DNA of 46,458 bases from Escherichia phage Phagiculus: the sequence record OR896821.1; one strand, written 5' to 3'. Both the position numbers and the translations under genes were made by a program. Shown here piece after piece: positions 101 through 39,272 of this stretch. The first letter of the stretch is position 1; each line of letters begins with the position of its first letter. Below the pieces are notes generated by a model, which made no database searches, was not told the origin of the DNA, and worked only from the letters and a program-made list of their open reading frames with translations.

Positions 101-3073
101 TTAATTGTAACCCTTAAGAAAATTATAAAGCCTACCGCCTTGCTGCGCTGACTTCTCAAGCTCCTCAGCGACAATCAGTCTCACACCGCTCTCAATCGCC
201 TTAGCTTCTCCATCTGAGTTGCTTGAGCCGCCAACATTGACCGTAACTCCGCCAACGTTAACAGATGTTAAGCCGCCGCCAACAAGACCGCCATTCGCAT
301 AACCAGCGCTTAGATTGCCAACTGAGCCGCCATTAGCATATCCACGCATTAGCTTGTAAAGGTTTCCAACGCCAATCCTTGAAGTTGCCTCTTTTGTAAA
401 TACAAACTCTCCTTTGTGAACCGTGCCAGCTGGTTCGTACTTGCCACCGTTACCAGTGTAGCCGCCATCAGCGAAACCTAAAGCAGATATTAGCCCACTG
501 CCAGAGCTAGCTGCCGAGCCGCCACCAAAACTGCTGATAGTTGACTCAATAGCTTTAACTATAAGTAATTGAGTAGCAATCTTAGCGATCTGCTGAAGTA
601 TTGACGCTGCAAACTCCTTAAAGTTCGCCTTACCAGTAGTGAGGAGGCTTGTGATATTGTCTGTAATTCCAGTTAATACACTCTTTGTTAGATCGTAGCT
701 TATTTGGGCGAGGTTAGTTGCTTCAGCTGTGTAATCTTTAAATGCATCACTGGCGCCAGCAAGGAAGTCAGACCTTGCTAAATCCTCCTGCTTATAGAAA
801 GCCTCCTGAGCATCCCTAATTGCTTTATAGTCAGGGGAGTCAAGACTTCCACCCCTATTTAGCTGGTAAGATTCAGCTTTCGCCCTTTCTTGATTTCTGG
901 CATTCTCTATAGACCCGCTACCCCTATTGGATAGAGCAGCAGTCTGAGCAGCTAATTCTCTAGCCTTTTTAAGGTTATCGTCCTGAAGTTTATTCGCCCT
1001 TTCCTGCAAAACAATCTGATCGCCAAGTTCAGCTTTCTGTCTTGCCAATTCGAGAACCTTATCTTTCTCAATGAGAAGTCTGGCCTGCTCTCTTTTTATT
1101 GTACCAGCGTCCCGGCGCTCCTCGAGGATTGCAAACTTAGCTTCTTCGGCGAACAGCTGCTTGCGTTCATTACTGATTACGTCGCTAATCTGGCGGTGAT
1201 CTTTAAGAACCCTAAGCTGAGCCTCTAATGCAAGGACTCCAGACTCGTAGCTCAGCGTCAAATCTCTTTGGCTACCTACACCCTCCTTGCGCTTCTTGTT
1301 GGATTCCTCAATATCCTTAAGCTCCTGCTCTCTTGCCTTCCTACGCTTTTCAAATTCAGCGTCTGACTCACCCGTCCTTTGCTTCTCATCCTGAGAAGGC
1401 GTTACATAACCTAACTCACCTTTACGAATCCTAGCATCTCGCTCAGCGATTGACTTGATTAGCTCCTGATTGGCCTTCTCTATACCCTGGTTCTGCTCCT
1501 CAAACTGCTTAATTAGATCACTACCCACTCCTTTGGCCCCTGGTATCTTCTGGAAGGCCTTTAGAGAGGAAATCAAAAAGTCGTTGATGAGAATGTCACC
1601 CTGACCAATAAACAAACTGATTTGCTCAATTGTTTTAGCAACAACATCAGTGATAAGGTTGAGAGCGCCAAGCGTCCTGTTTCCAATGTCAGTCCAAATT
1701 CTTGATATGAAGTTCCTGAAGCCCTGCCATGCTCGCTCAAGTGGTGTAAGTGATTCGGCAACTTTAGTAAGGCGATTCTCCATAACATCAGCGAATAACT
1801 TAGTGGCAGCCGTTACAGCTTGCGTTTCACCTTGCGTAACCCTGATTTGCTCAATGTATTTAAGCTGACCTGCGGTTAAGAAGTTAAACTGCTTATCTAG
1901 CTCAGCAAGACCTTTGACCGGGTCATTTGCAATCTTGTCGAAGCTCTTAACGATATCTTCAGCTGAGTCACCAGTTACTGTGGCCCATCTAGCGGTTGCC
2001 TCTGTGATAATAGAAATCTGCGCTACAGTGCGATTGCCGCTAGCAACCAAACCTTTGGCAATCTCTTGACCAAGCCCCTGAGTTGCACCAGCAGCTTCTG
2101 ACGCGTTCCTGGCAAGATTCTGTATCGCAGCAGCAGATAAATTCGCATTCTGCCCAGTCAGTGTAAGAGTCTTTTCAAGCTGCGCCGTATTCTGGTATGC
2201 CTGGTAAGCCGACAATCCTAAAGCACCAAGAGCTACACCAAGCGCGCCAGCTGCAACTATAAAAGGATTCAATGCTGCAAGTGCAAATCTGAAGGTGTTA
2301 GCCACACCGCCAAAGCTATCTTTAATCTGTCCACCCTGCTGGATTGCAATCAACCAGATTGGAATACCGCCAGCGAGTGAGGTCCCGATATCTGTAATTT
2401 GCGCTGGCAACTGCCTGATTGCGTTTCTATACTCACCAGCGCTAAGTCCTGACTTTCTGAATGCACCGGACTGAGCCGACAATGCCGCAGAAGCTCTATT
2501 TGATGCATCAGCTATCTGATTAATAATAGGCGCCGCCTGGCTTGAAACACCCAACTCAGCAGCGCGAAGCTTAAGTAATTCCTCTCGAGTTAGTGTCGCC
2601 GCCTGCGCCTCCGCCTGCAAAGACTTAAGGAATCTTTCTGCCTGAGTCGCCGCTGTAGCTTTTGCCTTTGATGCCTCTATCGCCGCTCTGCCTTCCTCTG
2701 TCAAGGCGCGCTGATTCGTTCTCAGGCGATTTGTTTGCGTCTCCAGTGCCTCGCTTAAGCGGTAGAACTCAGCCTCTGGAACAACTCCAGCCGTAAAAGC
2801 CTTGTCCAGTGAGTTCGCGGCTTCCTGCAACTTACGCAGCTTTGATGCGGTCGGGTCGATTGCTGATTGTAAAGACTGAAAGGCGCTACGCTGCTCAGAA
2901 AGATAACGAGCTGTATCTCTTGCTTGATTTTTTGCTACCTGTTCGGCGTTAACGAAGCTACTAATTCCAGCTGCAGCTTGCTCGTTTGCGCGCTTAAATT
3001 CCTGCAACGACCTAGTGCCCTGGTCTACCTGCCTTACGTCTACGCCTAATGTAATTCCGGCAAATTCAGCCAT
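101..3073 (-). CDS. tail tape measure protein
   Basis: about 990 aa, coiled-coil rich, Gly-rich C-terminus, directly downstream of chaperone G/GT and upstream of M-L-K-I-J; GGAGG RBS before ATG at 3073 (ORF-track start at 3121 lies upstream of the terminator-like hairpin). Confidence 0.85.
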
Positions 3074-3083
3074 ATTACCTCCA

Positions 3084-3110
3084 TAAAAAAACCTCCACGA
3101 GGGAGGTTTA
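3084..3110 (-). terminator. intrinsic terminator-like hairpin between chaperone GT stop and tape measure start
   Basis: minus strand ACCTCC-CTCGT-GGAGGT followed by TTTTTTT, then GGAGG RBS. Confidence 0.45.
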
Positions 3111-3434
3111 TTTCTTAACATGCTGCATCATATCCAGAGCCTTATACTCAAGTATGCGCAGGTCGTTTAAAACCATCTCTTTATCTTTGACATTATACAC
3201 ATCAAAGAGAAATGGTAGTACTGAATAATCTAATCCTGTCGCGCCGTTCATCCCGACTCGCCATTGAGTAGCGGAAGCCTGATAGATATTCCATGCGCAC
3301 ATCATGTCATCATCGAAGAATAATTCCTCTGGCCCTTCATCTTCGTAATCTGAGCGGCGCATACCAATAGCTTCAAGTTCCGCATCTGTAGGCTCCTTCT
3401 GATACTGGAGGAATACGGCGCGTTTTAGTTTTTT
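3108..3434 (-). CDS. tail assembly chaperone T-frame extension (expressed as G-T fusion by -1 frameshift)
   Basis: -1 frame open from slippery site to stop at 3108; covers the ORF-track 84-aa ORF. Confidence 0.6.
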
Positions 3435-3742
3435 GCTCGCTGACCTGCGAGTGCCTGCATATATGCGTTAGTTAACGCCAGTACCGAAGCAGGGAAAAGA
3501 GAAACTAATTCCTCGATATTTTCATCATTAAAATCTTCCTCAAGGTTCCAGTCAGAGCAGATTTCCTTAACGAAGTCGTAATCCTTCAACCCTTCAGTCT
3601 GGAAGATTTCCTGAATCTCTTTAGCTTTACGGTGCTTTGCTGTAAAGATTACCTCAGCTTCCTCGCCGTTAATCATCTGGAATTTAACAGGCAGCTTAAA
3701 ATCAGGTAAAGCGCCAAGTGTTAATTTGAATTTTGCAGCCAT
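3425..3742 (-). CDS. tail assembly chaperone (lambda gpG-like)
   Basis: 105-aa acidic protein directly upstream of tape measure; AGGAG RBS; ends in frameshift site. Confidence 0.65.
   Translation of the reverse strand: MAAKFKLTLGALPDFKLPVKFQMINGEEAEVIFTAKHRKAKEIQEIFQTEGLKDYDFVKEICSDWNLEEDFNDENIEELVSLFPASVLALTNAYMQALAGQRAKN
3428..3434 (-). other. programmed -1 ribosomal frameshift slippery heptamer A_AAA_AAC
   Basis: minus-strand AAAAAAC immediately before the G stop codon; -1 frame continues open for about 107 codons. Confidence 0.6.
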
Positions 3743-3788
3743 CTCTCGATACTCCTATTGTTTGTTTGAGGTTTCTATTGTATTCATT

Positions 3789-4490
3789 TTATTTACTGTT
3801 AGCAAGGTATAGCGCTTTAGCAAAGCCTCTTGGGGTAAGGCTTCTAATCATCTTAGTTCTTGCGCTCTTCCCGCCAAGTTTAGCCCAGCCTGGATTATCG
3901 GATGAGTTAGCATTAACCATCTTATCCTCAGGCATAACAAAGCCGTTTCCAGTCCAGAGGCAAGTTTTCTTATTGTAAGTATCCCTTCCAGGAATTATCT
4001 CAGGGAAGAACGGGTGCTTGTCATCCTCATCAAGATAGCCACCAAAATCACAAGGATGGAAAGTGTGATTTGGCCTTCTCCACATCGATGACAATACGCT
4101 AACTGGGTTCTCTATCATATATGGAGCGTTAAAGTGATTGGCTATATACTCAGCAATTCTGCAAGTTGACACCGCCTTGCGCTGAAAATCAGGGTCTTTT
4201 TCACCCTTAGATTTAAAGTGTCTTGAACCCGATACAGCAAGGTCAGTACACGGAGGGAATGCAATTATTAAATCTGGCTCACCAAAATAGCCTTTAACAG
4301 CCAGGTCCGCGAAAGATGAATCAATCCATGCATTAATGTATGTTATGTTCTCATGCTGAATCTTTGAGTTGTATTTGGCGTAGTCACCGTGGTCAGCGTC
4401 GTCATAGTTAAAACAAATCACCTTGTGACCGTTTTCTGCCCACGGCTGAGCTGCGATACCTGAACCATCAAATAAGCTGAATACTAACAT
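3789..4490 (-). CDS. DNA (cytosine-5) methyltransferase-like protein
   Basis: motif I-like LFDGSGI, motif IV-like FPPCTD with Pro-Cys, motif VI-like IENPVS; GAGGG RBS before ATG at 4490; preceded by terminator. Confidence 0.5.
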   Translation of the reverse strand: MLVFSLFDGSGIAAQPWAENGHKVICFNYDDADHGDYAKYNSKIQHENITYINAWIDSSFADLAVKGYFGEPDLIIAFPPCTDLAVSGSRHFKSKGEKDPDFQRKAVSTCRIAEYIANHFNAPYMIENPVSVLSSMWRRPNHTFHPCDFGGYLDEDDKHPFFPEIIPGRDTYNKKTCLWTGNGFVMPEDKMVNANSSDNPGWAKLGGKSARTKMIRSLTPRGFAKALYLANSK

Positions 4491-12192: not shown

Positions 12193-13464
12193 TTAGATGA
12201 TTACCTCCTCTTCCGTAACCTGCGGCACAGCTTCTTGCTGCTCTACGTCACCATCAGTCAACTTAACTTCTGGCGCGATAACACGAATTGTATCACGAGC
12301 CTCGTTAACATTCATAACGCCAGCTGCAATTAATGCAGAAAGAGATTCAACGTTAGACCTCATCACTTCTGCCTTCTGTTCGTTGCTAGGCTGGTTTAGT
12401 GGGTTAAAGTCGATTGACCATTCTTGCTCTGTTACGATGAACGGTATTAAGAACTCAAGAATAGGCAGCAAATCAGCCTTTCGTTTACGGTCTACCAGTT
12501 TGTGGAATGTCTCAAGTGCCGTGTTCTGGCTAGATGAAACGCCGCCAACGTTCTTGGCCTTCAGTACAATTTCATGAATACCACTCAGGGCAACGATTCG
12601 GTCGAACTTAGCTGAAAGTAAATCCGTAACGCCAGAAGTTGAAGCTGTTAGTACGCTGTAATCCTCTGATTCCGCATCAATGCCAATCGTATTCGCCACG
12701 CCGCCATTGCTATCAACCTGAGCTAGTCGCAACCTTGCAGCTGCCACACCTTCAGAATCATCACAGATTTCAGCCAAACCCTTGACCTTCCATACTCCCT
12801 GCTGGCTACGCTTCATTAACTGAGTTGCATAGCTTTCGCACTGCTGGTAGTCCTGAATTGCATCAAGCAGGTCATTACTTAGTACTGTAGCACCCCAGCC
12901 ATCATTTTGTCGACGGAGTGTGTTAGGTACGCGCTCGCCATCGATGATATGAATGCGAGTATAGTGCACATCATAGAAAGTATCAGAGTCACCAGTAGTA
13001 ATTCGGTAGGTAACTGGCTTGCCAAAGCGTGAATTGCGCGGATTTTCCTCGCGTGTTTGAATCCTGACTTGCTGGCGATCATAAACCCTTACAGATTCCA
13101 GTTCTGCACCTTCACGAACCGGCTTAGTCAGGTCTCGATTGTCTCGGACGATTGCTACGATAGCCGAGCCGCCGAATAACCTGGCCCATGACCATGCATC
13201 AGTTATTGAATCTGATAGGTCAAGCTCATCCCAGCGCGACCAGAATGCGTCTTCATTCTCAATGCCGTCAATGTGAAACCCAGCACCAAGCCCTTCCTCT
13301 GGAATTACGTCGACAATGCGGCGAACTAGTGCGTTGTTTACGTATGCAGACTGTAATATAGCAGGAATACCAATACCAACAGAGCCAAACCGTCCAAAAA
13401 TCTCACTACCTGTACCTAAAGTGCCATCACCAAAGGTGTTTGCATAAGAATCAGCCTTTACCAT
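12193..13464 (-). CDS. portal protein
   Basis: about 420 aa, immediately downstream of terminase large subunit; GGAG RBS before ATG at 13464. Confidence 0.55.
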   Translation of the reverse strand: MVKADSYANTFGDGTLGTGSEIFGRFGSVGIGIPAILQSAYVNNALVRRIVDVIPEEGLGAGFHIDGIENEDAFWSRWDELDLSDSITDAWSWARLFGGSAIVAIVRDNRDLTKPVREGAELESVRVYDRQQVRIQTREENPRNSRFGKPVTYRITTGDSDTFYDVHYTRIHIIDGERVPNTLRRQNDGWGATVLSNDLLDAIQDYQQCESYATQLMKRSQQGVWKVKGLAEICDDSEGVAAARLRLAQVDSNGGVANTIGIDAESEDYSVLTASTSGVTDLLSAKFDRIVALSGIHEIVLKAKNVGGVSSSQNTALETFHKLVDRKRKADLLPILEFLIPFIVTEQEWSIDFNPLNQPSNEQKAEVMRSNVESLSALIAAGVMNVNEARDTIRVIAPEVKLTDGDVEQQEAVPQVTEEEVII

Positions 13465-13514
13465 GTGTTTCTCCAATAAAAAAGCCCCCATATAGAAGGC
13501 TAGTTTAGCACGGT

Positions 13515-15083
13515 TTATCTAATTCCAGCTAGTCGCTTCAGAGCTGCTTTAGGGTCATCTGCGAGGTTAAGTTCACAGTTGATAGCCATTGTTGTGGTAT
13601 CCACGATGTCATCATGAAGGTGACTGTCGTCAGCAGTGAATGCAGCAAACTCAGCAAGGAATGCAGGCAACCAGGGCGCAGACTCTGGCAAAATAACGTT
13701 ACCAGCCTTAATCTGAGGTAATGCACTCATTACTCGCGTAAGTTTGTCGCTGTCCGGAACAAACGGCTCTATAGGTGTTCTCATCGTTCTGCTTGCTGAC
13801 TGAATCAGTCCGATGCCAGACGCCTTCTTCTCGATGATAACTTTGCGAAGGATTCCGTCAATCTTATTCATTGAGCGGGCCTTAGCTTCAAACTCGACGA
13901 GAGTAGCCTCAAGTTCAGGCGCTTCCCATTTGCCGCGAACCATGTCAAGTAAGTAAGCCTTACGGTCCTTAACTCCCCACAGCTGGAATACGGAGAAGTC
14001 GCTATAGCTCTTAGTAGTCATCGCAGTGTCAGCCGTGATAAATCGGTAATCGTACTTAGCTGGAGGTCTGTTGTTCTCATCAATTCGAGCAAACCAGTCT
14101 ACGTTAACCAGGTTTCCACCTAGAGCCACTGGCTCCTGCTGGTACTGACTCATGAATGTGTAGTGGTCAGAGTCCATCATAGACACCAGGTCGTGAACAG
14201 ATTCCTTTTTAGGGAAGTAGCTATAATACTTCACGCCATCGCGTTCAACATATTCGCTTGATAGCACGTCATCAATGAATTGCTGCTTAATCCAATCAGG
14301 CAATGTATCGACGTAATCTTCAGTAACTAGCGCAGGAATCTTAACCACATCGAAGTCTATACCCATACCACCAGAAGTCATGAACCAAGTTGAGTCGTTC
14401 ACGTGCAAGCGCTGCTGGATGGAAAGAATTGGCGTGGCCTTACCTTTTACCGAACTTGCACGACGAGAGCGAACGGTGTTTTTAAGAAGCGTATGAACAG
14501 CCTCTCTGCGAACCTTGCTAAACATGTCGTCTGCTTTATCAATATCATCCAGCATTAAACAGCCGCTATAATTATCAGTGATATATCCCCCGCGAGCGCC
14601 AATTATCTGACCGCCAATCGCCTTAGAGATGGACTCAAACCTGACCTTTCCAGACTCATCAAGAACCTGAATCTCATCATCCTTGCATGTTCCAAACTTA
14701 GACGGGAATAACTCCTGGAACTCAGTTGACTTAATCAGGTCACGCACCCGCTTTGAGTTACGCTTCACCAGACTATCCGAGAACGATAAGTTAAGGTTCC
14801 TAACCTTTTGTAGCTTGAGCATTGAGTAGACTGGAAAGTGGATTGAAGTAATCTCAGTCTTACCAGCACCAGGCGCTACGTTAATGATTGTATCTTTGCG
14901 CTCGCCACTGATTACCTCGTCGATGATTCTGCAAAGGTACTTGTGATGCCAGTTGGGGATATAGCGTTCGCCCTGTGTTAGCTGAAACCACACCCGAAGG
15001 AATGCCTCGAAGTTGTGAGTGGATAAAGCTTTAACTGCCAGCTTTTCGGCTGGCGTCATATCTTCCCAAACTAGTGTATTCAT
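13515..15083 (-). CDS. terminase large subunit
   Basis: Walker A VAPGAGKTE; 522 aa; ATGA overlap with upstream small gene. Confidence 0.85.
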   Translation of the reverse strand: MNTLVWEDMTPAEKLAVKALSTHNFEAFLRVWFQLTQGERYIPNWHHKYLCRIIDEVISGERKDTIINVAPGAGKTEITSIHFPVYSMLKLQKVRNLNLSFSDSLVKRNSKRVRDLIKSTEFQELFPSKFGTCKDDEIQVLDESGKVRFESISKAIGGQIIGARGGYITDNYSGCLMLDDIDKADDMFSKVRREAVHTLLKNTVRSRRASSVKGKATPILSIQQRLHVNDSTWFMTSGGMGIDFDVVKIPALVTEDYVDTLPDWIKQQFIDDVLSSEYVERDGVKYYSYFPKKESVHDLVSMMDSDHYTFMSQYQQEPVALGGNLVNVDWFARIDENNRPPAKYDYRFITADTAMTTKSYSDFSVFQLWGVKDRKAYLLDMVRGKWEAPELEATLVEFEAKARSMNKIDGILRKVIIEKKASGIGLIQSASRTMRTPIEPFVPDSDKLTRVMSALPQIKAGNVILPESAPWLPAFLAEFAAFTADDSHLHDDIVDTTTMAINCELNLADDPKAALKRLAGIR

Positions 15084-19170: not shown

Positions 19171-19178
19171 CTAACGAA

Positions 19179-19222
19179 TAGCACTTTTTGCTAAAGACGA
19201 AACCACCATGATTGGGTATAGT
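19179..19222 (+). promoter_or_regulatory. conserved promoter module
   Basis: tagcactttttgcta then aagacg then TATAGT at 19217..19222; leader CCATCGAAACGAA. Confidence 0.6.
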
Positions 19223-19260
19223 TACTCCATCGAAACGAACCAAACACAGGAATCTGAATC

Positions 19261-19456: not shown

Positions 19457-19675
19457 ATGTCCATTAAATTAACGATAGATGAGACTAAAATGAAAACATT
19501 ATTTAAGAATAAAGATGAAATTGTTGTAGGTGACACGATTATCATGAATGGGGAAATGCATACTATGGGAAAAGAGAGTTTCGGCAGAGATGAGTTTCTT
19601 GGTCGTACGATTCGCGGTGATAGCTTTGCGCTTGGTTATCGCATGGTTGAGGTGGTGGTTGATGTTAAGTTCTAA
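19457..19675 (+). CDS. hypothetical protein (73 aa)
   Basis: ATG at 19457; ORF-track start at 19448 is TTG. Confidence 0.45.
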   Translation: MSIKLTIDETKMKTLFKNKDEIVVGDTIIMNGEMHTMGKESFGRDEFLGRTIRGDSFALGYRMVEVVVDVKF

Positions 19676-19676
19676 A

Positions 19677-19719
19677 TAGCACTTTTTGTTAAAACAGGCA
19701 TTAAGAAAACGAGTATAGT
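19677..19719 (+). promoter_or_regulatory. conserved promoter module
   Basis: tagcactttttgtta, aaacag, TATAGT at 19714..19719. Confidence 0.55.
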
Positions 19720-19747
19720 TATCACATCAACAACGAGGAGATAGAAA

Positions 19748-20542: not shown

Positions 20543-20766
20543 TTCATGAACTAAAGATATTACCAGTACATTTTGATCCGGTAGATACTGGCCTTAAGCT
20601 GGCAGAGCTAAGAAAAAATGACAGAAATTTTTCTGTTGGTGATAAGTTGATACTCAAAGAGTTCCACGATGGTGCTTATACCGGAAGGATTACAATAAAA
20701 GAGGTATTACATATAGCTGATGTTTCCGAATATCTTCCAGGGTATGTTTTACTCTCAATGTATTAA
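20539..20766 (+). CDS. ASCH/DUF3850-like small protein
   Basis: MIHELKILPVHFDPV...LRKNDRNFSVGD pattern typical of the DUF3850 family. Confidence 0.45.
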   Translation: MIHELKILPVHFDPVDTGLKLAELRKNDRNFSVGDKLILKEFHDGAYTGRITIKEVLHIADVSEYLPGYVLLSMY

Positions 20767-20810
20767 TAGCACTTTTTGCTAATGACATTACCCGCCTCGG
20801 CGGGTATATT
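20767..20810 (+). promoter_or_regulatory. conserved promoter module
   Basis: tagcactttttgcta, -35-like ATGACA, TATATT; hairpin CCGCCTCGGCGG in spacer. Confidence 0.55.
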
Positions 20811-20842
20811 TATATCCATCGACAACGAAATAGAGAAATAAG

Positions 20843-22426
20843 ATGTTTGATTTTAACGATGACAAATTGACTGTTGAGCAAGTAATGGCTGTTGCCGCTC
20901 AGGATGGATTGCCTCCCTTACGCGTTGCTATTAATGCTAATGGATATCGCCAGTCTCAATCATTCTGGAAATCACCTGTAGAGATTGACTCTGCAAATGA
21001 TAAGTACCCTACCATCTCTCTTGGTAACGATTTTGATGTGGTTGGTAAGTTAGCTAATAACATTGCTCGCTCTGTTCAGTTCCCCGAGGCTTCAGCTTAC
21101 ATGCACTTCCTGGGTTGCATCTCTGCGGCAATGCTAGGCCGCTTTACGGTTGAGTATCATGGAACTCAGCAACCTACGGCTTTGTACGTGGTAACTAGCC
21201 AGCCCCCATCCACTGGTAAGTCAGCAATCAACTCATTAGCGATTGCGCCAATGGTTGCAGAGGTTGAGCGAATCAACGACCAACGTAAACGTGAACGCAA
21301 GAAGATTATGGCTAAGCTGTCTGCGTTGGCTAAAGAGATGAAACAGGAGAAGTCACCATCTGAAATGGCATCTCTCTTTGAAGAGAAAGAAGACCTGGAG
21401 GAGAAGCTTGAGAAGATGTGCGATGTTGTATTCCCTGTTTCCGACACAACACCCGAAGGTCTTGCTCGCATCAACAATCGCCAGGGTAACTTTGCGGTAA
21501 TCTCGGATGAGGCGACATCAGTAAACTCATTGCTTGGCATGACTTATGGCGATAGTAGCAAGAAGACAAACAGCGAACTAGTTCTTAAGGCGTGGGACTC
21601 TGGTAACGTATCAATCGCTCGTGCCAACGCAGAAAACAATATGAGTTTTGTTGCTTTAGGTTGCATCTCTGTAATCGCGCAGGATGAGACAATTAACGCA
21701 ATAATGGATGCTGGTGCTCGTGGTATCGGTGTATCAGAGCGTTTCTTATTAGTTCGTGAAAAATCATTCCTGGGCGAACGTGTATTTGTTAACGATAACG
21801 GTGAATCAACTTACGAGCCCATCGATAATGGACTGAAAGCTGATTACTTCCGCCTGGTTCATGAAATTATGTCAGAGGTTGATGTTAAGCTGACAATCAG
21901 TAACGGTGCAGCGCTTTACCTTAACCGCGCTCGTCAGGAAATGGAACCTCACCTCGGTGATGGAGGCAAATACTCTCACTCCATGCTACGTGGCGCTCTG
22001 GGCAAGTTTGATAAGCAGGTAATTCGTATTGCGGCAGTTCTTCATACAATTCGCAATTGGGTTAATCTTAATGGTGGTAGTCCGCAGAAAGAAAGAACAA
22101 TTGACCTTGATACTATGCAGGAAGCCATTGCGATTTTCCATGAACTTAGTAAGACTTATCTTTCATCTGCAAATGCGGCTGGTCATGCTGGTGATAATGC
22201 CGAGATGAATAAGCTGATTGATATTTTGATTAAGCAAGGCAAGGCATCCAAAGGAGTGGTGGGCATTCGTGCGCTTTACGAAGCTGCTCGCAAGGTAAAA
22301 CCATTTAACTCCCAGAATGGTACCATGTTAAAGATTAAAGAACACTTAATGCCAATGCTTGATGAAAAAAACTACACTTGCACAATAGGAGAGAAAATTT
22401 ATGTCAACCCTCGCTTGCTTAGCTGA
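20843..22426 (+). CDS. P-loop NTPase, DUF3987-like replication-associated protein
   Basis: Walker A-like QPPSTGKS and Walker B-like VISDEA. Confidence 0.55.
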   Translation: MFDFNDDKLTVEQVMAVAAQDGLPPLRVAINANGYRQSQSFWKSPVEIDSANDKYPTISLGNDFDVVGKLANNIARSVQFPEASAYMHFLGCISAAMLGRFTVEYHGTQQPTALYVVTSQPPSTGKSAINSLAIAPMVAEVERINDQRKRERKKIMAKLSALAKEMKQEKSPSEMASLFEEKEDLEEKLEKMCDVVFPVSDTTPEGLARINNRQGNFAVISDEATSVNSLLGMTYGDSSKKTNSELVLKAWDSGNVSIARANAENNMSFVALGCISVIAQDETINAIMDAGARGIGVSERFLLVREKSFLGERVFVNDNGESTYEPIDNGLKADYFRLVHEIMSEVDVKLTISNGAALYLNRARQEMEPHLGDGGKYSHSMLRGALGKFDKQVIRIAAVLHTIRNWVNLNGGSPQKERTIDLDTMQEAIAIFHELSKTYLSSANAAGHAGDNAEMNKLIDILIKQGKASKGVVGIRALYEAARKVKPFNSQNGTMLKIKEHLMPMLDEKNYTCTIGEKIYVNPRLLS

Positions 22427-22883
22427 TGTTTATTATGATGGTATAGATTTAGTCTGGGCTAGAGATATGGGACCAGCAATAATAAAGGGCAGTTATTGCG
22501 GAAACATTTCAAGGGGTGGGTACAAAAGGTTTTATCATGCAGGTAAACGGCTTAGTAATCACATTGTTATATGGAATATAGTAAATGGAGAAATACCTAA
22601 AGGAATGGAAATTGACCACATAAATCATGACAGATCTGAAAATAGAATAGAAAATTTAAGGCTGGTATCAAGACAGGAAAATGCAAAAAACAAAGGAATC
22701 TATAAAAGCAATACTAGCGGTTTTTCTGGGGTTACTATAGAAAAGAACGGCAAGTTTAAAGCAAGAATATCTGTGAGTGGTAAAAGGGTAGCGCTTGGAA
22801 CTTACATTGATTTTAATGATGCTTGCAACGCGATAATGAAAGCCAGATTGAAGTACAAATTCCACGAAAATCACGGAGGTTAA
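22401..22883 (+). CDS. HNH homing endonuclease with AP2-like domain
   Basis: EIDHINHDRSENRIENLRLVSRQEN; paralogous to 35967..36440. Confidence 0.8.
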   Translation: MSTLACLADVYYDGIDLVWARDMGPAIIKGSYCGNISRGGYKRFYHAGKRLSNHIVIWNIVNGEIPKGMEIDHINHDRSENRIENLRLVSRQENAKNKGIYKSNTSGFSGVTIEKNGKFKARISVSGKRVALGTYIDFNDACNAIMKARLKYKFHENHGG

Positions 22884-22886
22884 CTT

Positions 22887-23221
22887 TGTTTGTATTAGAT
22901 GTATTTAAATTCTGCGAAAGCTATGAGAGATTTAACCGCCAGCATTTGGCAAGGTTCATTTATCAACATAGAGAGTGCGAGAGACTTGCTAAGCTTGCTG
23001 GTGTTACAACTCGATACTTTGCATCAAGCTCTTCAAGGGAGTTCCTTGCAAGGTGTATGTCTGCTGGCTACATTGATGGAGTTAACAACTGGTATTGGGT
23101 GATAAGTAAAAGTCGCAGGCCGTTCGGTTTTGAGTTCAGGAGTTTTAGAGGAAATGATGAGGATTACATCAAGGAGATTATGAGCATTAACGAAATGTCA
23201 GATGATGAGTTGTTTAAATAG
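22887..23221 (+). CDS. hypothetical protein (about 112 aa), probable TTG start
   Basis: GGAGG RBS 6 nt before TTG. Confidence 0.35.
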
Positions 23222-25431: not shown

Positions 25432-25463
25432 TTCTCTAACTCCATCTCGTTGTCGATGAAATA

Positions 25464-25507
25464 AATATAGCGCCTTTCGGCGCTATAGTCTTTAGCAAAA
25501 AGTGCTA
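25464..25507 (-). promoter_or_regulatory. conserved promoter module with hairpin in spacer
   Basis: tagcaaaaagtgcta at 25493..25507; ATAGCGCC-TTTC-GGCGCTAT hairpin; TATATT. Confidence 0.5.
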
Positions 25508-26644
25508 CTTAGTGAACATTTTAGGACGGCAGATGAATCGACCAACCTCGCCAAACTCTTTATGATAAATAATTACCGCAGCCTGACGCTGTGAACGCCA
25601 GCCTCCATTTGCACTGTATGCGTCAGGAGAGCCAAGCTGACCGTGAACCTCGTCAATACCCAAGTTAGTCTCTGTAATCTTCTGTGAGTGCCAGTGCCCT
25701 GAGTGGGTGTAAACATAATCACTAACACCAAAATCACGTCGCCAATCAGTAGCCATAACAGTCAATCGCGTTTCGGCTTTCCGCATCTGGTGGCCGTGAG
25801 TGTATCCAATCAAAGTAGAGCCAAACTTAGTAACCATCATAGCCGCGGGGCTTACGTCAACCGTGACTCGAGGCTCATCCTCATAGAATGCAGCAAGAGC
25901 GGCGCGAAGCCAAACCATACCAGATTCGTCGTGGTTGCCAGAAATTGTTTTAATATCAATAGTTTGGTGCTTCTCAAGCATCTTACGAATAGCTCGACGA
26001 ACAGACCTAATACAAACATAAACAATCTTAGCATAACGGCTGTCGCTGTCTAAAATATGACCGCTTGCAGGTGTCTTAGCCTCAAGTGAATCATAGTGAA
26101 TCAAGTCACCACCAAGTACAAGTACGGCATTCTTTGAGTTCGGCGCTTCATTTACAGCATAATCAAAGAAGTCATTCATTACCTTTTCTGCGGTTGCCGT
26201 GTCGTAGTTTTCACCACACTCATGCTTGTGAGCCATAGCGCCAATATGAAGGTCAAATACAGGGTACATAGCCAAAGTGTTTTCATCAAAAACTTTACCC
26301 TTAACTTCAACTGGTTCTTCTTTAGGTAACTCGGAGCAGAAAGCCTCTCGAGCTTGCTCCATCAACTGCTCAAGTCGCTCATTGTCAACGCTAGTCTTGA
26401 CCCACCGAATCTTCTCATTTCCTTCTGCGTCAATCATGGTTGATGTTCCCTTCACCATGTAACCATCTGGAACAAGCTTCTTAATGCCAGGATTTCCATG
26501 CAACTCACCAGCCTTAGCCAGCTTACTACGACGCAATTCAACATTGCGAATATTCATACCGTACTTCTCTGCGATTGCCTTGTTAGTCATTCCGTTCGCC
26601 AGTTCTTCACGAAGCTGTTCGTTGCTGATTTTTGCAGTTGCCAT
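25505..26644 (-). CDS. metallophosphoesterase (Mre11/SbcD-like) with N-terminal HTH
   Basis: FDLHIG, GGDLIH, GNHDE, GHWH motifs; N-terminal GMTNKAIAEKYGMNIRNVELRRSKL. Confidence 0.7.
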   Translation of the reverse strand: MATAKISNEQLREELANGMTNKAIAEKYGMNIRNVELRRSKLAKAGELHGNPGIKKLVPDGYMVKGTSTMIDAEGNEKIRWVKTSVDNERLEQLMEQAREAFCSELPKEEPVEVKGKVFDENTLAMYPVFDLHIGAMAHKHECGENYDTATAEKVMNDFFDYAVNEAPNSKNAVLVLGGDLIHYDSLEAKTPASGHILDSDSRYAKIVYVCIRSVRRAIRKMLEKHQTIDIKTISGNHDESGMVWLRAALAAFYEDEPRVTVDVSPAAMMVTKFGSTLIGYTHGHQMRKAETRLTVMATDWRRDFGVSDYVYTHSGHWHSQKITETNLGIDEVHGQLGSPDAYSANGGWRSQRQAAVIIYHKEFGEVGRFICRPKMFTK

Positions 26645-34777: not shown

Positions 34778-35194
34778 TCAGAACGGGATGTCCTCATCGT
34801 CACTAAAGCGGCTTTGTTGCTGAGGTTGTTGTCGCTGCTGCTGAGGTTGTTTTTGCTGCTGTGGTGCTGATTCCCCACCACGCTGGCTAAACATCAATCG
34901 CGGGTTCTGCAACTCAAGTGTAATATATGTCTTACCATTATGTTTCCGCTCGTTAACTGCTAATGAATCACCGCTCACAGAGATAACCTTTCCTTCCTGG
35001 AAGGCTTCATCATACCAACTAATCTGCGCCTCGCTTGCAAAAAGCGTAATTCTGTAATTGGTATATTTACGCTCTCCATCTTTAGTCTTGTAAGATTCGC
35101 TCATCTCGATAGCGTACATCTTCCAGTTCCCTTTTGCATTCTGACCATCTTTAGTGTAAGGAGCCTTACGAATCTGACCTGTAATTACGTGCAT
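34778..35194 (-). CDS. ssb: single-stranded DNA-binding protein
   Basis: OB-fold-like N-terminus, Gln/Pro-rich linker, acidic tail SDDEDIPF. Confidence 0.8.
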   Translation of the reverse strand: MHVITGQIRKAPYTKDGQNAKGNWKMYAIEMSESYKTKDGERKYTNYRITLFASEAQISWYDEAFQEGKVISVSGDSLAVNERKHNGKTYITLELQNPRLMFSQRGGESAPQQQKQPQQQRQQPQQQSRFSDDEDIPF

Positions 35195-35241
35195 ATTATT
35201 CTCTCTTCTCGTTTGATTCTGGGGCCGAAGCCCCGTTTAAT

Positions 35242-35892
35242 TTAGAACTGCTCGATTGATTGTGATTCTACCGCTTCACTCGTTGCGTTTGCAACCTTTT
35301 TAGCGACTTCCTTTGGTTTCGATGGGTTGAATCCGCTTGCGGATGCCATTTTAATCTCAGCTTGCTTATCAATAATCGCCTTCTCTACGATACCCCACGT
35401 TGCCGCGTCAGCTTGTGACTTACATGATTTGTAGATTTCAATTAGCTCTTCTCGTGTCTCGGCCTTCTCAACTTCTCGCTTCCAGTCTTTTACGCTCTTA
35501 ACTGCCAGGTTGCCGTCATCATCAGCTTGACTTAAACCAAGCGCCGCCGTGATCGCATATCTCCGAGCATAAGTTAATGAAGAACCCGTACCTTGACAAT
35601 CATTCTTGGCTAACGGAACAATAGTTAAGAAAGCCACCCACTCCGCAGTCTCTGCATGATAAATTTTAGTCTCAACCTTTATTTGATTTGTTGCTTCGGT
35701 TTCCAACATGCTCTGGAACATCACCAGTCCACTATCCTCAAGACCTGGCTCTACAGCCGCCAAAACGTCATCCAGAGTTGCGTATTTGTTCTTAAGGTGT
35801 GAGTTTTGCTTTGACTTTTCAGCCTTTGCAAACTTGCTTTTAGCTTCGAATAGTGCCTTTAAAACGTTTGTGTTTTTATCGCTAGTATTCAT
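35242..35892 (-). CDS. Erf-family single-strand annealing protein
   Basis: GSSLTYARRYAITAALGL motif typical of the ERF family. Confidence 0.7.
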   Translation of the reverse strand: MNTSDKNTNVLKALFEAKSKFAKAEKSKQNSHLKNKYATLDDVLAAVEPGLEDSGLVMFQSMLETEATNQIKVETKIYHAETAEWVAFLTIVPLAKNDCQGTGSSLTYARRYAITAALGLSQADDDGNLAVKSVKDWKREVEKAETREELIEIYKSCKSQADAATWGIVEKAIIDKQAEIKMASASGFNPSKPKEVAKKVANATSEAVESQSIEQF

Positions 35893-35921
35893 CTCTGTCT
35901 CTCTTTTTTGTCGATTAGGTA

Positions 35922-35964
35922 ACTATACACCATCGATTTAATCCTGTTTTAGCTATTCGTGCTA
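35922..35964 (-). promoter_or_regulatory. conserved promoter module
   Basis: tagctattcgtgcta (one mismatch); minus-strand TATAGT at 35927..35922; leader CCTAATCGACAAAAAAGAGAGA. Confidence 0.5.
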
Positions 35965-35966
35965 TA

Positions 35967-36440
35967 TCATTCGTGATTTTCATGAAATCCAAGCTCTAAC
36001 AGCTTATTCCTTCTTGATTCCGCAGCATCACTCAATGAGTTAAAGTACCCACAGTGGTAATACTTACCATTACACCTAACTGACGCTTTATATTTATTCA
36101 TCCTTTTGCAAAAAGTTACACCTTGAACTCCAGTTTTTGAGTTTTTGCCTATTGATTTATTTTTATTGTTATCAGAGCAAGTGACAAGTCTAAGGTTTTC
36201 AATTCTGTTATCTCCATTATCATGATTTATATGATCAACTTGCATTCCTTTCGGTATTGGTCCGTTAAACATCTCCCATACAACCCTGTGAACAAAGTAT
36301 ATCTTCTTATCAAGACCAACTCTCTTATATCCTGTCTTTTCTACCCTCCCAGCCTCCCATCCGACACATATAACTCTTGATGGCTTAACCTTCCAAAATA
36401 TTAAACCTTCACTGTAATCAAACCAATCATGCCAATTCAT
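35967..36440 (-). CDS. HNH homing endonuclease with AP2-like domain
   Basis: QVDHINHDNGDNRIENLRLVTCSDNNKNK; C-terminal ELGFHENH. Confidence 0.8.
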   Translation of the reverse strand: MNWHDWFDYSEGLIFWKVKPSRVICVGWEAGRVEKTGYKRVGLDKKIYFVHRVVWEMFNGPIPKGMQVDHINHDNGDNRIENLRLVTCSDNNKNKSIGKNSKTGVQGVTFCKRMNKYKASVRCNGKYYHCGYFNSLSDAAESRRNKLLELGFHENHE

Positions 36441-37386
36441 ATTTTTTCATCTCATATTCTGGTATCTGCAAATCCATCTCTGTTTCGCCAAATCCGTAAC
36501 CAGGCCAAATATCAAGTTTCTTGCATTGCTTGTACACAGAAAGCGCGCTCATATACTGCAATCTACCAACCTTTAATTGCTCCTTGGTTATCGTGTAGCA
36601 CATTGGCAAGAAAGGGCTTTTCTTCTCCTGGCAAAGAAGCTGTACAACAACTTTACGTTTTTCACCAAAGGCGCGAACAAACAAATCATGTTGAAGCGAC
36701 ATTTTTAGCAAGTAACCATGCTTGAATGCCAATCTCCCAAATCCAGACGGAGAAGCATCACTAGTCGTCTTGTAATCTCGGATGTAAACAACATCATCAA
36801 CAACATCAACATGGTCCAGTCGAACCTTTACGCCGCACTCGTTAATCTCACCGAAGATTGATAACTCTCTCTGAGCGGTCTTGCTGTTTACTATAGCGTT
36901 GTAAGCCGGAATGCCACATAACACGTCTCGCATCGCCTGTACAGTGTCAAAGTCTTTAGCTGATACAATCTCGCGCCCATTTGCTTTAGCCTCGCTAGAG
37001 CGCTGAATATCCCACCATACGTTAAGTGATTCCCCACTCAGAGCCAACATCTCCATCAACTCCGGGTAATCCTTACCAGATGTCCCAGCAATTCCCATAG
37101 ACTTCAATCGAGTTGCCAATGCTGCCTTGCTGGTAATAAGGTCTTCAAATTCTTCCTGTGATGGTTGGCGATAGTAAGTCGCATCAAATACAGAGTTCTC
37201 AAGAATAACCGTATGGGCTAATGTACCGAACTTTAAAGCCTTACTGCTATCATCATGCTCTGCAAACTTATACGCCGCTGGACAAGTTGAGAATATGTGA
37301 GCCAGGCCAGAGCCTGACACATGGTCAGACTCCTGATGGTAGGCTTCGTTGGTTAACTCATCGTTAGTGTAAACCTTGAAGCTCAT
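36427..37386 (-). CDS. PD-(D/E)XK-type exonuclease (recombination partner of Erf)
   Basis: VRLDHVD...IRDYKT D-(D/E)-x-K pattern; adjacent to erf and ssb. Confidence 0.6.
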   Translation of the reverse strand: MSFKVYTNDELTNEAYHQESDHVSGSGLAHIFSTCPAAYKFAEHDDSSKALKFGTLAHTVILENSVFDATYYRQPSQEEFEDLITSKAALATRLKSMGIAGTSGKDYPELMEMLALSGESLNVWWDIQRSSEAKANGREIVSAKDFDTVQAMRDVLCGIPAYNAIVNSKTAQRELSIFGEINECGVKVRLDHVDVVDDVVYIRDYKTTSDASPSGFGRLAFKHGYLLKMSLQHDLFVRAFGEKRKVVVQLLCQEKKSPFLPMCYTITKEQLKVGRLQYMSALSVYKQCKKLDIWPGYGFGETEMDLQIPEYEMKKYELA

Positions 37387-37390
37387 AATC

Positions 37391-37585
37391 TTATTCCTTA
37401 ACCTTAATAATCTTCATCACAGAACCGAGTTCCTCGTCTGTGACGTGCGCATACTCTATTGCCTCTTGCTTCGTTTCAAATCTTGCAGCTTCTGATTTAT
37501 TACTTGTGTAACCAGAGCCATCTACGCAGTAGTAGCAAGTGCCAAAAATAGGATTGTTTCGCTCTTGAATAATGAAGTATGCCAT
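37391..37585 (-). CDS. hypothetical protein (64 aa)
   Basis: ORF. Confidence 0.45.
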   Translation of the reverse strand: MAYFIIQERNNPIFGTCYYCVDGSGYTSNKSEAARFETKQEAIEYAHVTDEELGSVMKIIKVKE

Positions 37586-37661
37586 CTCTATATCTCTCTC
37601 TGCTTGTGTGAGTTAACTATGCCATCCGTTGCTAACTTTATCCAATCGGTTTTGCCTATTG

Positions 37662-38869: not shown

Positions 38870-39272
38870 TCATGAGCCCGCACCAACACTGGATGTAACT
38901 CATGTAAACGCTGTAACAGTAGTTTTTGCGCCCCTATCTATATATCCATATGCATTTGGCAACACCAGAAACAGAACTTAGTCATTTCAAAAAAACATAT
39001 CAACACAACCATAGAAGGTAGTTACACTATATACAAACAAATATAGTAATAATAATAATTACTCTAAACCCTTATTATATAAGGATTCTTTAGTGTAACT
39101 AATGCGTATCTGCGCGTAAAAAGCGTATACAATTTCCCGCGGGTCAGGATTGCATACATCGATTTACATAGGTTACGCGTATATCAAATAGCACGATTTG
39201 CTAAAGACTGACTGAAGCACCTTTGGTATAGTTACTCCATCGAAACGAAAAACACTTAATAAGGATTCAAAA
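38870..39272. repeat. AT-rich control region B, paralogous to 18670..19260
   Basis: same ordered sequence blocks as region A, ending in conserved promoter module. Confidence 0.6.
39189..39232 (+). promoter_or_regulatory. conserved promoter module
   Basis: tagcacgatttgcta, aagact, TATAGT at 39227..39232; leader TACTCCATCGAAACGAA identical to the one at 19222..19250. Confidence 0.6.

What the first reader, a model, noticed from the sequence alone, without database searches (positions are those of the whole stretch)
22401..22883. Two paralogous HNH-AP2 homing endonuclease genes inserted beside replication and recombination genes
The ORFs at 22401..22883 and 35967..36440 share the motif IPKGM-x-(I/V)DHINHD-x4-NRIENLRLV and a C-terminal FHENH. 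One overlaps the end of the P-loop replication gene; the other sits between erf and the exonuclease gene with its stop abutting a promoter module. Free-standing homing endonucleases mark recent mobile insertions and can mediate marker exclusion between co-infecting phages.
Basis: partly seen in the sequence, partly recalled or inferred. Interest (0 to 1): 0.5.

Follow-up and report, generated by a model that had tools for sequence, protein, structure and literature searches.

The report
Two free-standing HNH-AP2 homing endonuclease genes
This T1-like coliphage carries two selfish "homing" nuclease genes wedged between a replication gene and recombination genes. Relatives with empty sites show they are true insertions, but this kind of element is already well known in such phages.

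Summary
ORFs 22401..22883 (+) and 35967..36440 (-) are paralogues (41% identity, E 5e-34). Both have an I-HmuI-like HNH_3 nuclease domain with an intact D-H...N...N catalytic set, followed by a C-terminal AP2-fold domain. The AP2 domain falls below Pfam's threshold but is supported by a family profile and by a structure model.

The window is the complete genome of Escherichia phage Phagiculus (Rogunavirus-like, Drexlerviridae), where at least the first of the two genes is already annotated "HNH endonuclease".

Both genes are precise ~460-470 bp, low-GC insertions.
- **HNH-1** lies between the DUF3987 helicase and a ydbL-like gene. That junction is empty in 51 of 51 related viral contigs and in JK06 and AHS24. 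Only phage ETEP102 shares the insertion, and its copy has an in-frame stop.
- **HNH-2** cuts off the last codons of the exonuclease gene and ends 2 nt before a repeated promoter module. Rogue1, JK06, phiEB49 and others have the empty site.

AHS24 is almost identical to Rogue1 in the flanks compared, except for a ~1.9 kb patch centred on this HNH gene, which looks like a homing and co-conversion footprint.

This is a new member of a well-known kind, and interest is low.

The parts
22401..22883 (+). HNH-1: free-standing HNH(HNN)-AP2 endonuclease gene, 160 aa
   Evidence: ORF. Pfam HNH_3 2.1e-19 and phrog_99 1e-50. AF2 model has pLDDT 88, with I-HmuI as the top fold match followed by AP2 domains. 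GC is 35% against 44-45% in the flanking genes. 100% identical to 'HNH endonuclease [Escherichia phage Phagiculus]'.
20843..22426 (+). Upstream host gene: DUF3987 / P-loop replicative helicase. Its last 26 nt are shared with HNH-1.
   Evidence: Pfam DUF3987 8.9e-42 and phrog_2373 DNA helicase. Alleles carrying the HNH end ...CTIG(E/D)K(I/V)YVNPRLLS*, while empty alleles end ...CLIGDKVYINPRLLG*.
22387..22391 (+). AGGAG ribosome-binding site for HNH-1, embedded in helicase codons 9 nt upstream of the ATG
   Evidence: Read directly from the sequence. The empty allele in JK06 has GGTGA here and ATATC instead of ATGTC, so it has neither an RBS nor an ATG.
22886..23221 (+). Downstream host gene: ydbL-like, phrog_2794, TTG start 2 nt after the HNH-1 stop. 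Its GGAGG RBS (22875-22879) lies in the last HNH-1 codons.
   Evidence: Alignment to JK06 and ETEP102 and phrog_2794 3e-54. The gene is 336 nt, the same length as JK_56. The longer ORF listed from 22823 is an over-extension.
35967..36440 (-). HNH-2: free-standing HNH(HNN)-AP2 endonuclease gene, 157 aa
   Evidence: ORF. Pfam HNH_3 5.1e-23 and a weak AP2 hit at 0.0039. phrog_99 7e-63 and I-HmuI by sequence, E 0.002. 96.8% identical to AHS24/AHP24 gp33. GC is 36%.
36427..37386 (-). Upstream host gene: PD-(D/E)XK exonuclease (RecE/exoVIII-like), truncated by the insertion to 319 aa ending ...KYELA*
   Evidence: Pfam DUF3799/PDDEXK_1. Empty alleles are 321-322 aa and end ...KYE(D/N)STN(S/C)*.
35949..35964 (-). 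Fossil of the original exonuclease 3' end (TAGCACGAATAGCTAA = ...S T N S stop), now non-coding. It is also the upstream half of the promoter module.
   Evidence: Three-way alignment of the window, AHS24 and Rogue1, six more relatives and the sequence itself.
35905..35966 (-). Repeated promoter-like module that precedes erf, with TATAGT at 35927-35922
   Evidence: Module copies aligned. Strict pattern gives 4 matches against 0 in shuffles. The generic sigma-70 scan does not report it because its -35 element is weak.
35242..35892 (-). Downstream host gene: erf (single-strand annealing protein)
   Evidence: Pfam ERF 1.2e-28.
35018..36930 (.). Window equivalent of the ~1.9 kb patch in which AHS24 (HNH present) departs from its near-identical relative Rogue1 (HNH absent). 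This is the inferred co-conversion tract around HNH-2.
   Evidence: Sliding identity and difference map. AHS24 and Rogue1 are 98-100% identical outside this stretch and 57-89% inside it. In the exonuclease gene at ~36400-36700, the window sides with AHS24 at 31 of the 34 sites that differ (Rogue1 at 1, neither at 2).

Best explanation
Both ORFs are free-standing homing endonuclease genes of the HNN-AP2 class. The N-terminal part is an I-HmuI-like His-Me finger nuclease and the C-terminal part is an AP2 DNA-binding domain. Each is a selfish ~460-470 bp cassette sitting at the 3' edge of a conserved DNA-metabolism gene. Neither has a recognisable promoter of its own. Each start codon overlaps the end of the upstream gene, so each is probably co-transcribed and translationally coupled with it. 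This applies to the helicase for HNH-1 and the exonuclease for HNH-2. The inferred mechanism is as follows. During co-infection with a relative lacking the cassette, the enzyme binds a long asymmetric site at or near the empty junction. It then nicks or cuts that site; the structural relative I-HmuI is a strand-specific nickase. The break is repaired by recombination using the HNH-carrying genome as template. This copies the cassette together with a few hundred bp to ~1 kb of flanking sequence, which amounts to localized marker exclusion. The carrier allele is thought to be protected by the insertion itself and by the altered junction codons. What is shown here: the domain architecture, the intact catalytic residues, purifying selection, the precise insertion junctions, presence/absence polymorphism, one co-conversion footprint and one decayed copy. 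What is inferred: cleavage activity, the target site, and whether the cut is a nick or a double-strand break.
For: Architecture: HNH_3 is above Pfam's threshold in both proteins. The family profile hits I-HmuI at 1.6e-9 and the AP2 domains of WRI1 and TEM1 at 1.9e-6 and 1.5e-4. The AF2 model (pLDDT 88) has I-HmuI as its top match, followed by AP2 domains at 1.5-1.6 A. Active site: D72, H73, N81, N85 and N94 are invariant across 93 family members. D72, H73, N85 and N94 align to I-HmuI D74, H75, N87 and N96. Selection: dN/dS is 0.14 for HNH-2 against AHS24 and about 0.12 for HNH-1 against ETEP102. Foreign composition: 35-36% GC against 44% in the flanks. Site 1 polymorphism: the helicase and ydbL genes are separated by only 4 nt in JK06 and AHS24. 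None of 51 IMG/VR relatives has an HNH gene at this junction. ETEP102 has an orthologue at the same junction with an in-frame TGA. Site 2 polymorphism: Rogue1, phiKP26, e4/1c, phiEB49, Sf12 and Sd1 carry a full-length exonuclease gene that ends inside the promoter module. In the window, AHS24 and Opt-79, the exonuclease gene is truncated to ...YELA* and its old 3' end survives as a fossil after the HNH stop codon, which fixes the direction of the change as an insertion. Transfer with flanks: AHS24 matches Rogue1 except for a ~1.9 kb patch around the HNH gene. Within that patch the HNH gene and ~300 bp of the exonuclease gene are 96-99% identical to the window. Independence: AHS24 is occupied at site 2 but empty at site 1. 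Literature: the HNH-AP2 combination is an established homing endonuclease family, with multiple copies noted in T1, Rtp and T5 (PMC2248197; PMC10448857, which cites Magnani 2004).
Against: No cleavage activity or target site has been demonstrated for either protein or for any close homologue. The AP2 domain is below Pfam's gathering score. HNH-1 has no close partner pair, so co-conversion cannot be shown for it. Its rarity (the window plus one pseudogene) shows it has not spread widely. At the exo|erf junction, the Opt-79 group carries a family member only 41% identical at the same insertion point. This means site choice is not explained simply by one enzyme recognising one target. The AHS24 patch could also be read as ordinary mosaic recombination that happened to carry the HNH gene along.
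Confidence: 0.8

Rival explanations
1. The genes are decaying or inactive relics. They entered by homing or illegitimate recombination in the past, no longer cut anything, and persist only because their ends now supply the upstream gene's stop region and the downstream gene's RBS.
For: The only other site-1 copy, in ETEP102, carries an in-frame stop. Degeneration after fixation is the expected fate of this class (PMC2248197). HNH-1's last codons hold the GGAGG RBS of the ydbL-like gene, and its first 26 nt are helicase codons. Clean deletion would therefore be costly.
Against: Both ORFs are full length with all invariant catalytic residues. dN/dS of 0.12-0.14 indicates selection on the protein. 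HNH-2 and its flanks have moved between lineages recently, being 97% identical to the AHS24 copy inside a divergent patch.
Confidence: 0.12
2. The proteins are domesticated, with a main role other than their own spread. One possibility is a weapon against competing phages or satellites. Another is an AP2-mediated DNA-binding regulator acting on the adjacent promoter module, with the nuclease function secondary.
For: HNH-2 ends 2 nt before a repeated promoter module. In Opt-79 and in an Sf12 locus, the HNH stop codon is itself the TAG of the module. AP2 domains derived from homing endonucleases have been recruited as transcriptional silencers (bioRxiv 10.64898/2026.02.23.707548), and domains of phage homing endonuclease genes have been swapped into genes of other phages and satellites (PMC10448857).
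Against: HNH-1 and 9 of the 12 family members examined are not next to a module. In empty alleles the exonuclease gene itself runs into the module, so adjacency follows from tight gene packing. The sporadic presence of these genes among close relatives argues against a core function.
Confidence: 0.06
3. The proteins are HNH accessory factors for the terminase, needed for genome packaging, like HK97 gp74-type HNH proteins.
For: Both proteins carry an HNH nuclease domain, which is the only feature they share with HK97 gp74-type packaging proteins.
Against: The large terminase (13515..15083, Terminase_6C) and the portal gene lie 7 kb and 21 kb away from the two HNH genes. The genes are absent from most relatives. 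The proteins belong to the HNH_3/I-HmuI + AP2 class, not to the small PF01844-type packaging HNH proteins.
Confidence: 0.02

Closest known systems
HNN-AP2 / HNH-AP2 free-standing homing endonuclease genes of phages (Magnani et al. 2004; Lee et al. 2007, PMC2248197, who list T1, Rtp, T5, RB16 and RB43; 'IPA-HNH' HEGs of Barth et al. 2023, PMC10448857)
   Same: The same two-domain architecture, with an N-terminal D-H...N...N His-Me finger lacking zinc CX2C dyads and a C-terminal AP2 domain. The size is the same at ~160 aa. They occur in several copies per genome, sit beside essential DNA-metabolism genes, are patchily distributed and show degenerate copies. Both window proteins fall in phrog_99.
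   Different: Nothing substantive. These are two further, biochemically uncharacterised members. The details added here are the exact junctions, a natural occupied/empty pair with a co-conversion patch, and two non-orthologous members at one junction.
I-HmuI (PDB 1U3E), the intron-encoded HNH homing endonuclease of Bacillus phage SPO1
   Same: It is the only solved sequence relative (E 0.002 for a single sequence, 1.6e-9 for the profile) and the top fold match. The catalytic Asp-His, Asn and Asn align. The N-terminal beta-strands that precede the HNH motif are shared.
   Different: I-HmuI is encoded inside a group I intron, and its C-terminal DNA-binding modules are not AP2 domains. The window genes are free-standing and use an AP2 domain. 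Strand-specific nicking is known for I-HmuI (my own knowledge of Shen et al. 2004) but is only inferred here.
T4 free-standing endonucleases SegF, SegG and MobE (intronless homing, localized marker exclusion)
   Same: The same lifestyle. The gene is inserted between conserved genes, spreads to cassette-less relatives in mixed infection, and co-converts flanking markers over hundreds of bp (cited in PMC10448857; mechanism from my own knowledge).
   Different: Seg enzymes are GIY-YIG nucleases, not HNH. MobE is an HNH enzyme but has a different DNA-binding region. For the window genes neither the crosses nor the cleavage mapping has been done.

Membership tests
HNH_3 / I-HmuI-like His-Me finger endonuclease | Sequence match to PF13392 above the gathering score | tested here: met
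   69.3 and 80.9 bits against a cut-off of 24.8.
HNH_3 / I-HmuI-like His-Me finger endonuclease | Catalytic Asp-His general base plus the structural and metal-binding Asn residues | tested here: met
   D72, H73, N81, N85 and N94 are invariant in 93 homologues. The alignment to I-HmuI places D-H on D74-H75 and the Asn residues on N87 and N96.
HNH_3 / I-HmuI-like His-Me finger endonuclease | Beta-beta-alpha-metal fold resembling a solved member | tested here: met
   The AF2 model has pLDDT 88. Foldseek ranks 1u3e first with probability 1.00, E 2.2e-3 and whole-chain TM 0.42.
HNH_3 / I-HmuI-like His-Me finger endonuclease | Metal-dependent DNA nicking or cleavage | not testable with these tools
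   This needs purified protein and a substrate.
AP2 DNA-binding domain | Sequence match to PF00847 above the gathering score | tested here: not met
   HNH-2 scores 17.9 bits (E 0.0039) against a cut-off of 33.3. HNH-1 has no hit at E<=0.01. Thirteen of the 120 listed homologues carry a precomputed PF00847 hit.
AP2 DNA-binding domain | Profile-level homology to solved AP2 domains | tested here: met
   Family profile A1, positions 103-154, hits WRI1 at 1.9e-6 and TEM1 at 1.5e-4.
AP2 DNA-binding domain | Three-stranded antiparallel sheet packed on one helix | tested here: met
   The model has strands 111-113, 119-125 and 128-135 and helix 138-151. It superposes on AtERF1 1gcc (1.5 A over 50 columns, 34% identity) and TEM1 7et5 (1.6 A).
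Free-standing homing endonuclease gene | Own ORF between host genes, not inside an intron or intein | tested here: met
   Both are separate ORFs in a different frame that overlap the 3' end of the upstream gene by 26 and 14 nt.
Free-standing homing endonuclease gene | Precise presence/absence polymorphism among relatives with otherwise conserved synteny | tested here: met
   Site 1 is empty in JK06, AHS24 and 51 of 51 IMG/VR loci. Site 2 is empty in Rogue1 and in five of the six loci checked, and in further records by annotation.
Free-standing homing endonuclease gene | Co-conversion of flanking markers with the gene | tested here: met
   This is met for site 2 only, through the ~1.9 kb AHS24/Rogue1 patch whose exonuclease-side flank is window-like. 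For site 1 it is inconclusive. There, the two occupied alleles share three derived helicase C-terminal residues, but no close occupied/empty pair exists.
Free-standing homing endonuclease gene | The enzyme cuts the cassette-less allele and spares its own | not testable with these tools
   This requires cleavage assays or phage crosses.
Terminase-associated packaging HNH (HK97 gp74-like) | Gene adjacent to the terminase and portal genes and conserved in all relatives | tested here: not met
   The terminase gene is at 13515..15083 and the portal gene at 12193..13491. The HNH genes are distant from these and sporadic among relatives.

The most novel reading that the evidence does not exclude
The exo|erf junction is a shared docking site that has been taken by non-orthologous HNH-AP2 genes. 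The window/AHS24 gene and the Opt-79 group's gene are only 41% identical, yet they share the same left junction and right junctions within 3 nt of each other. In some cases the HNH stop codon is fused to the first bases of a phage-wide promoter module. This would fit AP2 domains of this family recognising the module or the exonuclease 3' end. Under that reading the cassettes compete for and replace each other at one site, and may also modulate the erf-ssb promoter. That would be a link between homing and transcriptional control.
Probability: 0.08. Interest if true: 0.5.

Novelty: new member of a known kind. Interest (0 to 1): 0.2.

Why it matters
The finding mainly matters as good housekeeping. 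It shows that two annotated "HNH endonuclease" genes of a T1-like coliphage are true mobile insertions, with the junctions defined to the nucleotide. It also identifies natural occupied, empty and decayed alleles that could be used directly as substrates. These are Rogue1 or JK06 (empty), AHS24 (recently converted) and ETEP102 (pseudogene). Such cassettes shape mosaicism in therapeutic phage collections, and they can bias marker inheritance when phages are mixed in cocktails or engineered by recombination. No new biology is implied.

Tried and rejected
- **More copies in the window.** I searched for further copies or degenerate HNH/AP2 remnants with tblastn at E<=10 and with a family HMM over all six frames. 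Neither found any.
- **Remnants at site 1 in relatives.** I tested whether the enlarged helicase|ydbL gaps in phiEB49, Sd1 and IME253 are decayed HNH remnants. They are not. They encode small hydrophobic peptides with no similarity to the HNH genes.
- **Co-conversion around HNH-1.** Flank identity between the window and ETEP102 is not raised near the junction, and no close occupied/empty pair exists.
- **Association with the promoter module.** I tested whether family members generally abut the module. Only 3 of 12 instances do, two of them at the same site. Because the exonuclease gene itself runs into the module in empty alleles, the adjacency is explained by gene packing.
- **Generic promoter scan.** The sigma-70 scan found no promoter for either HNH gene and also missed the module because of its weak -35 element.
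- **Packaging-HNH role.** This was rejected on gene position.
- **Literature.** A search for AHS24/AHP24 together with HNH found nothing. The only paper naming Phagiculus is the Citizen Phage Library report. Magnani 2004 (PMC520932) is not held in the library and is cited only through PMC2248197 and PMC10448857.
Full report
**What the window is**

The window is a complete genome of a T1-like siphovirus. The 160-aa protein from 22401..22883 is 100% identical to "HNH endonuclease [Escherichia phage Phagiculus]", whose longest contig is 46,458 bp, the same length as the window. The nearest records in the phage collection are Rogunavirus members (JK06, Rogue1, AHS24, C119 and others) at about 76-89% nucleotide identity.

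**The observation**

Both ORFs exist exactly as described.
- They are clear paralogues, with 41% identity over 149 residues and E 5e-34.
- They are the only two members of the family in the window, and there are no degenerate remnants.
- The quoted motifs are present, except that the spacer between DHINHD and NRIENLRLV is three residues, not four.

**Domains**

- *Nuclease domain.* Both proteins match Pfam HNH_3 well above threshold (2.1e-19 and 5.1e-23), and both fall in phrog_99 "HNH endonuclease". The only solved protein found by sequence is the homing endonuclease I-HmuI (1U3E). It scores E 0.002 with HNH-2 alone and 1.6e-9 with a 93-member family profile.
- *Catalytic residues.* D72, H73, N81, N85 and N94 (HNH-1 numbering) are invariant across the family. 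D72, H73, N85 and N94 align to I-HmuI D74, H75, N87 and N96. This is the "HNN" variant without zinc-binding cysteine dyads, as described for phage HNN-AP2 enzymes (PMC2248197).
- *AP2 domain.* By Pfam this is sub-threshold: HNH-2 scores 17.9 bits against a cut-off of 33.3, and HNH-1 has no hit. The family profile, however, hits the solved AP2 domains of WRI1 (1.9e-6) and TEM1 (1.5e-4) with positions 103-154.
- *Structure model.* The AlphaFold2 model of HNH-1 (pLDDT 88) has a three-stranded sheet plus helix at residues 111-151. This superposes on AtERF1 and TEM1 AP2 domains at 1.5-1.6 A, right after I-HmuI as the top hit.

"HNH-AP2" is therefore correct.

**Site 1: helicase | HNH-1 | ydbL-like gene**

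- *Upstream gene.* It is a 527-aa DUF3987 / phrog_2373 helicase with a PPSTGKS Walker A motif.
- *Start of HNH-1.* The ATG lies 26 nt inside the helicase gene and is preceded by AGGAG at 22387-22391.
- *End of HNH-1.* The stop codon is followed 2 nt later by the TTG start (22886) of the ydbL-like gene. That gene's GGAGG RBS lies in the last HNH codons. The longer ORF listed from 22823 is an over-extension.
- *Empty alleles.* In JK06 and AHS24 the helicase stop and the ydbL start are 4 nt apart. The cassette is therefore a ~459-bp insertion (22427-22885).
- *Census.* Among 51 related IMG/VR contigs with helicase-ydbL synteny, none has an HNH gene at this junction. In 47 of them the two genes are directly adjacent.
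- *The only other occupied allele.* This is in phage ETEP102. The junction and the 26-nt overlap are the same and the protein is 68% identical, but it has an in-frame TGA and is annotated as two ORFs.
- *Shared junction changes.* The two occupied alleles share derived helicase C-termini, CTIG.K.YVNPRLLS against CLIGDKVYINPRLLG. This includes the Ile-to-Val change (ATC to GTC) that creates the HNH start codon.

**Site 2: exonuclease | HNH-2 | promoter module | erf**

- *Empty alleles.* In Rogue1, phiKP26, Sd1, e4/1c, Sf12 and phiEB49 the exonuclease is 321-322 aa and ends ...KYE(D/N)STN(S/C)*. Its last codons, (G/A)A(T/C) AGC AC(G/T) AAT (A/T)GC TAA, are themselves the upstream half of a promoter-like module that precedes erf.
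- *Occupied alleles.* In the window, AHS24/AHP24 and the Opt-79 group the exonuclease is 319 aa and ends ...KYELA*. The HNH ATG is formed from tAT Gaa, where empty alleles have TACGAA. The old exonuclease 3' end, TAGCACGAATAGCTAA, survives untranslated at 35964-35949, immediately after the HNH stop codon.
- *Direction of the change.* This fossil shows that the event was an insertion of ~470 bp (35965-36435), not a deletion in the relatives.
It reads AAATAGCAC-n3-TTGCTAAARAC, then 17 nt, then TATAGT, then CATCGA, and it recurs about 11 times. One copy lies just upstream of the helicase gene.

**Evidence for mobility**

- *Composition.* Both cassettes are 35-36% GC against 44% in the neighbouring genes.
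- *A natural occupied/empty pair.* AHS24 (occupied) and Rogue1 (empty) are 98-100% identical over the flanking ~1.7 kb and ~2.2 kb that I compared. They diverge to 57-89% in a ~1.9 kb patch, window 35018-36930, centred on the HNH gene. Inside the patch, the HNH gene and the adjoining ~300 bp of the exonuclease gene are 96-99% identical to the window. At the sites where AHS24 and Rogue1 differ in that stretch, the window sides with AHS24 at 31 of 34 (Rogue1 at 1, neither at 2). This is the pattern expected if the cassette entered a Rogue1-like genome by gene conversion together with flanking markers.
- *Independence of the two sites.* AHS24 is occupied at site 2 and empty at site 1.
- *Other junctions in the same module.* Other relatives carry diverged family members elsewhere in the recombination module. 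C119 and e4/1c have one at erf|ssb, and Sf12 has one upstream of the exonuclease gene.
- *A non-orthologous occupant.* The Opt-79 group has a member only 41% identical at the same exo|erf insertion point.
- *Selection.* Both window genes look selected as proteins, with dN/dS of 0.14 and about 0.12. The second value is rough because dS is saturated.

**Mechanism**

The best-supported reading is that both are free-standing homing endonuclease genes. They are probably expressed by read-through and translational coupling from the upstream gene, since no promoter is found inside them. The product would bind and nick or cut the cassette-less allele of a co-infecting relative. Recombinational repair would then copy the cassette and nearby markers. 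Cleavage, target and strand specificity are all inferred. Nicking is suggested only by analogy with I-HmuI.

The rivals are an inactive relic, a domesticated regulator or competition factor, and a packaging HNH. They are less likely for the following reasons.
- The active sites are intact and the genes are under purifying selection.
- The genes are sporadically distributed among close relatives.
- Most family members are not next to the promoter module.
- The genes are 7 kb and 21 kb from the terminase gene.

**Comparison with what is known**

The HNH-AP2 (HNN-AP2) architecture is an established homing endonuclease family in phages, cyanobacteria and protists. Multiple copies have been explicitly noted in T1, Rtp and T5, together with a gain-and-decay life cycle (PMC2248197). 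Its association with essential genes and with boundaries of genetic exchange has also been described (PMC10448857). tblastn finds relatives in about 2,700-3,300 phage records, often several per genome. The first of the two genes is already annotated as "HNH endonuclease" in the public record, and the AHS24 orthologue of the second carries the same annotation.

**Verdict**

This is a new member of a known kind and interest is low. The modest added value is fourfold: nucleotide-level junctions, a ready-made natural occupied/empty/decayed allele series, the insertion's fit against a promoter module, and two non-orthologous cassettes at one junction.

Noticed in passing
window 19178-19224(+), ~19675-19723(+), 20766-20812(+), 39188-39234(+); 4563, 17132, 18064, 25507, 28075, 35964, 38693 (- strand, position of TAGCAC): A ~60-nt promoter-like module recurs about 11 times, mostly in front of gene blocks. 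It reads AAATAGCAC-n3-TTGCTAAARAC, then ~17 nt, then TATAGT/TATATT, then (C)CATCGAAACGA. The -35 position is weak (AAARAC), so the generic sigma-70 scan misses it. The conserved upstream TAGCAC...GCTAAA half and the downstream CATCGAAACGA box suggest a phage-specific promoter or regulator-binding unit.
   Followed up: partly
window 20789-20806 and 25470-25490 (within module copies 20766-20812 and 25462-25508): In two module copies the 17-nt spacer between the -35-like and -10-like elements is a GC-rich hairpin (CCCGCCTCGGCGGG and GCGCCGAAAGGCGC). The scan calls one of these a terminator. A terminator-like stem sitting inside a promoter spacer is odd.
   Followed up: no
L017 (phiEB49) 3383-3592; L019 (Sd1) 4079-4187; L020 (IME253) 4079-4177: The helicase|ydbL junction that holds HNH-1 in the window is occupied in these relatives by tiny hydrophobic-peptide ORFs, for example MRKIESFVMYSLIPIHLISILFCILSLIYG. 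phiEB49 has two tandem copies, and the second is preceded by a duplicated copy of the helicase's last codons (INPRLLG*). The junction therefore appears to be a general insertion hotspot.
   Followed up: partly
L006 (Opt-79) ~1430; L018 (Sf12 locus) ~5247 (-): In two relatives the HNH stop codon TAG is itself the first three bases of the promoter module's TAGCAC element. One of these is at a different genomic site from exo|erf.
   Followed up: partly
L063 (Sd1) 3452-3760: Sd1 has an extra ~250-nt ORF inserted between the exo-proximal promoter module and erf. This is another variable cargo in the same intergenic region.
   Followed up: no
L001 (JK06) 1495-3086: The JK06 record splits the DUF3987 helicase into three ORFs (JK_52, JK_54 and JK_55). 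These are probably frameshifts or sequencing errors in an old record, so only its last 501 nt were used here.
   Followed up: no
window 37443-37643 (equivalent in L002/L003): There is a second, small cluster of AHS24-versus-Rogue1 differences, 16 in 200 bp, in the small genes upstream of the exonuclease gene. It is separate from the HNH-centred patch.
   Followed up: no
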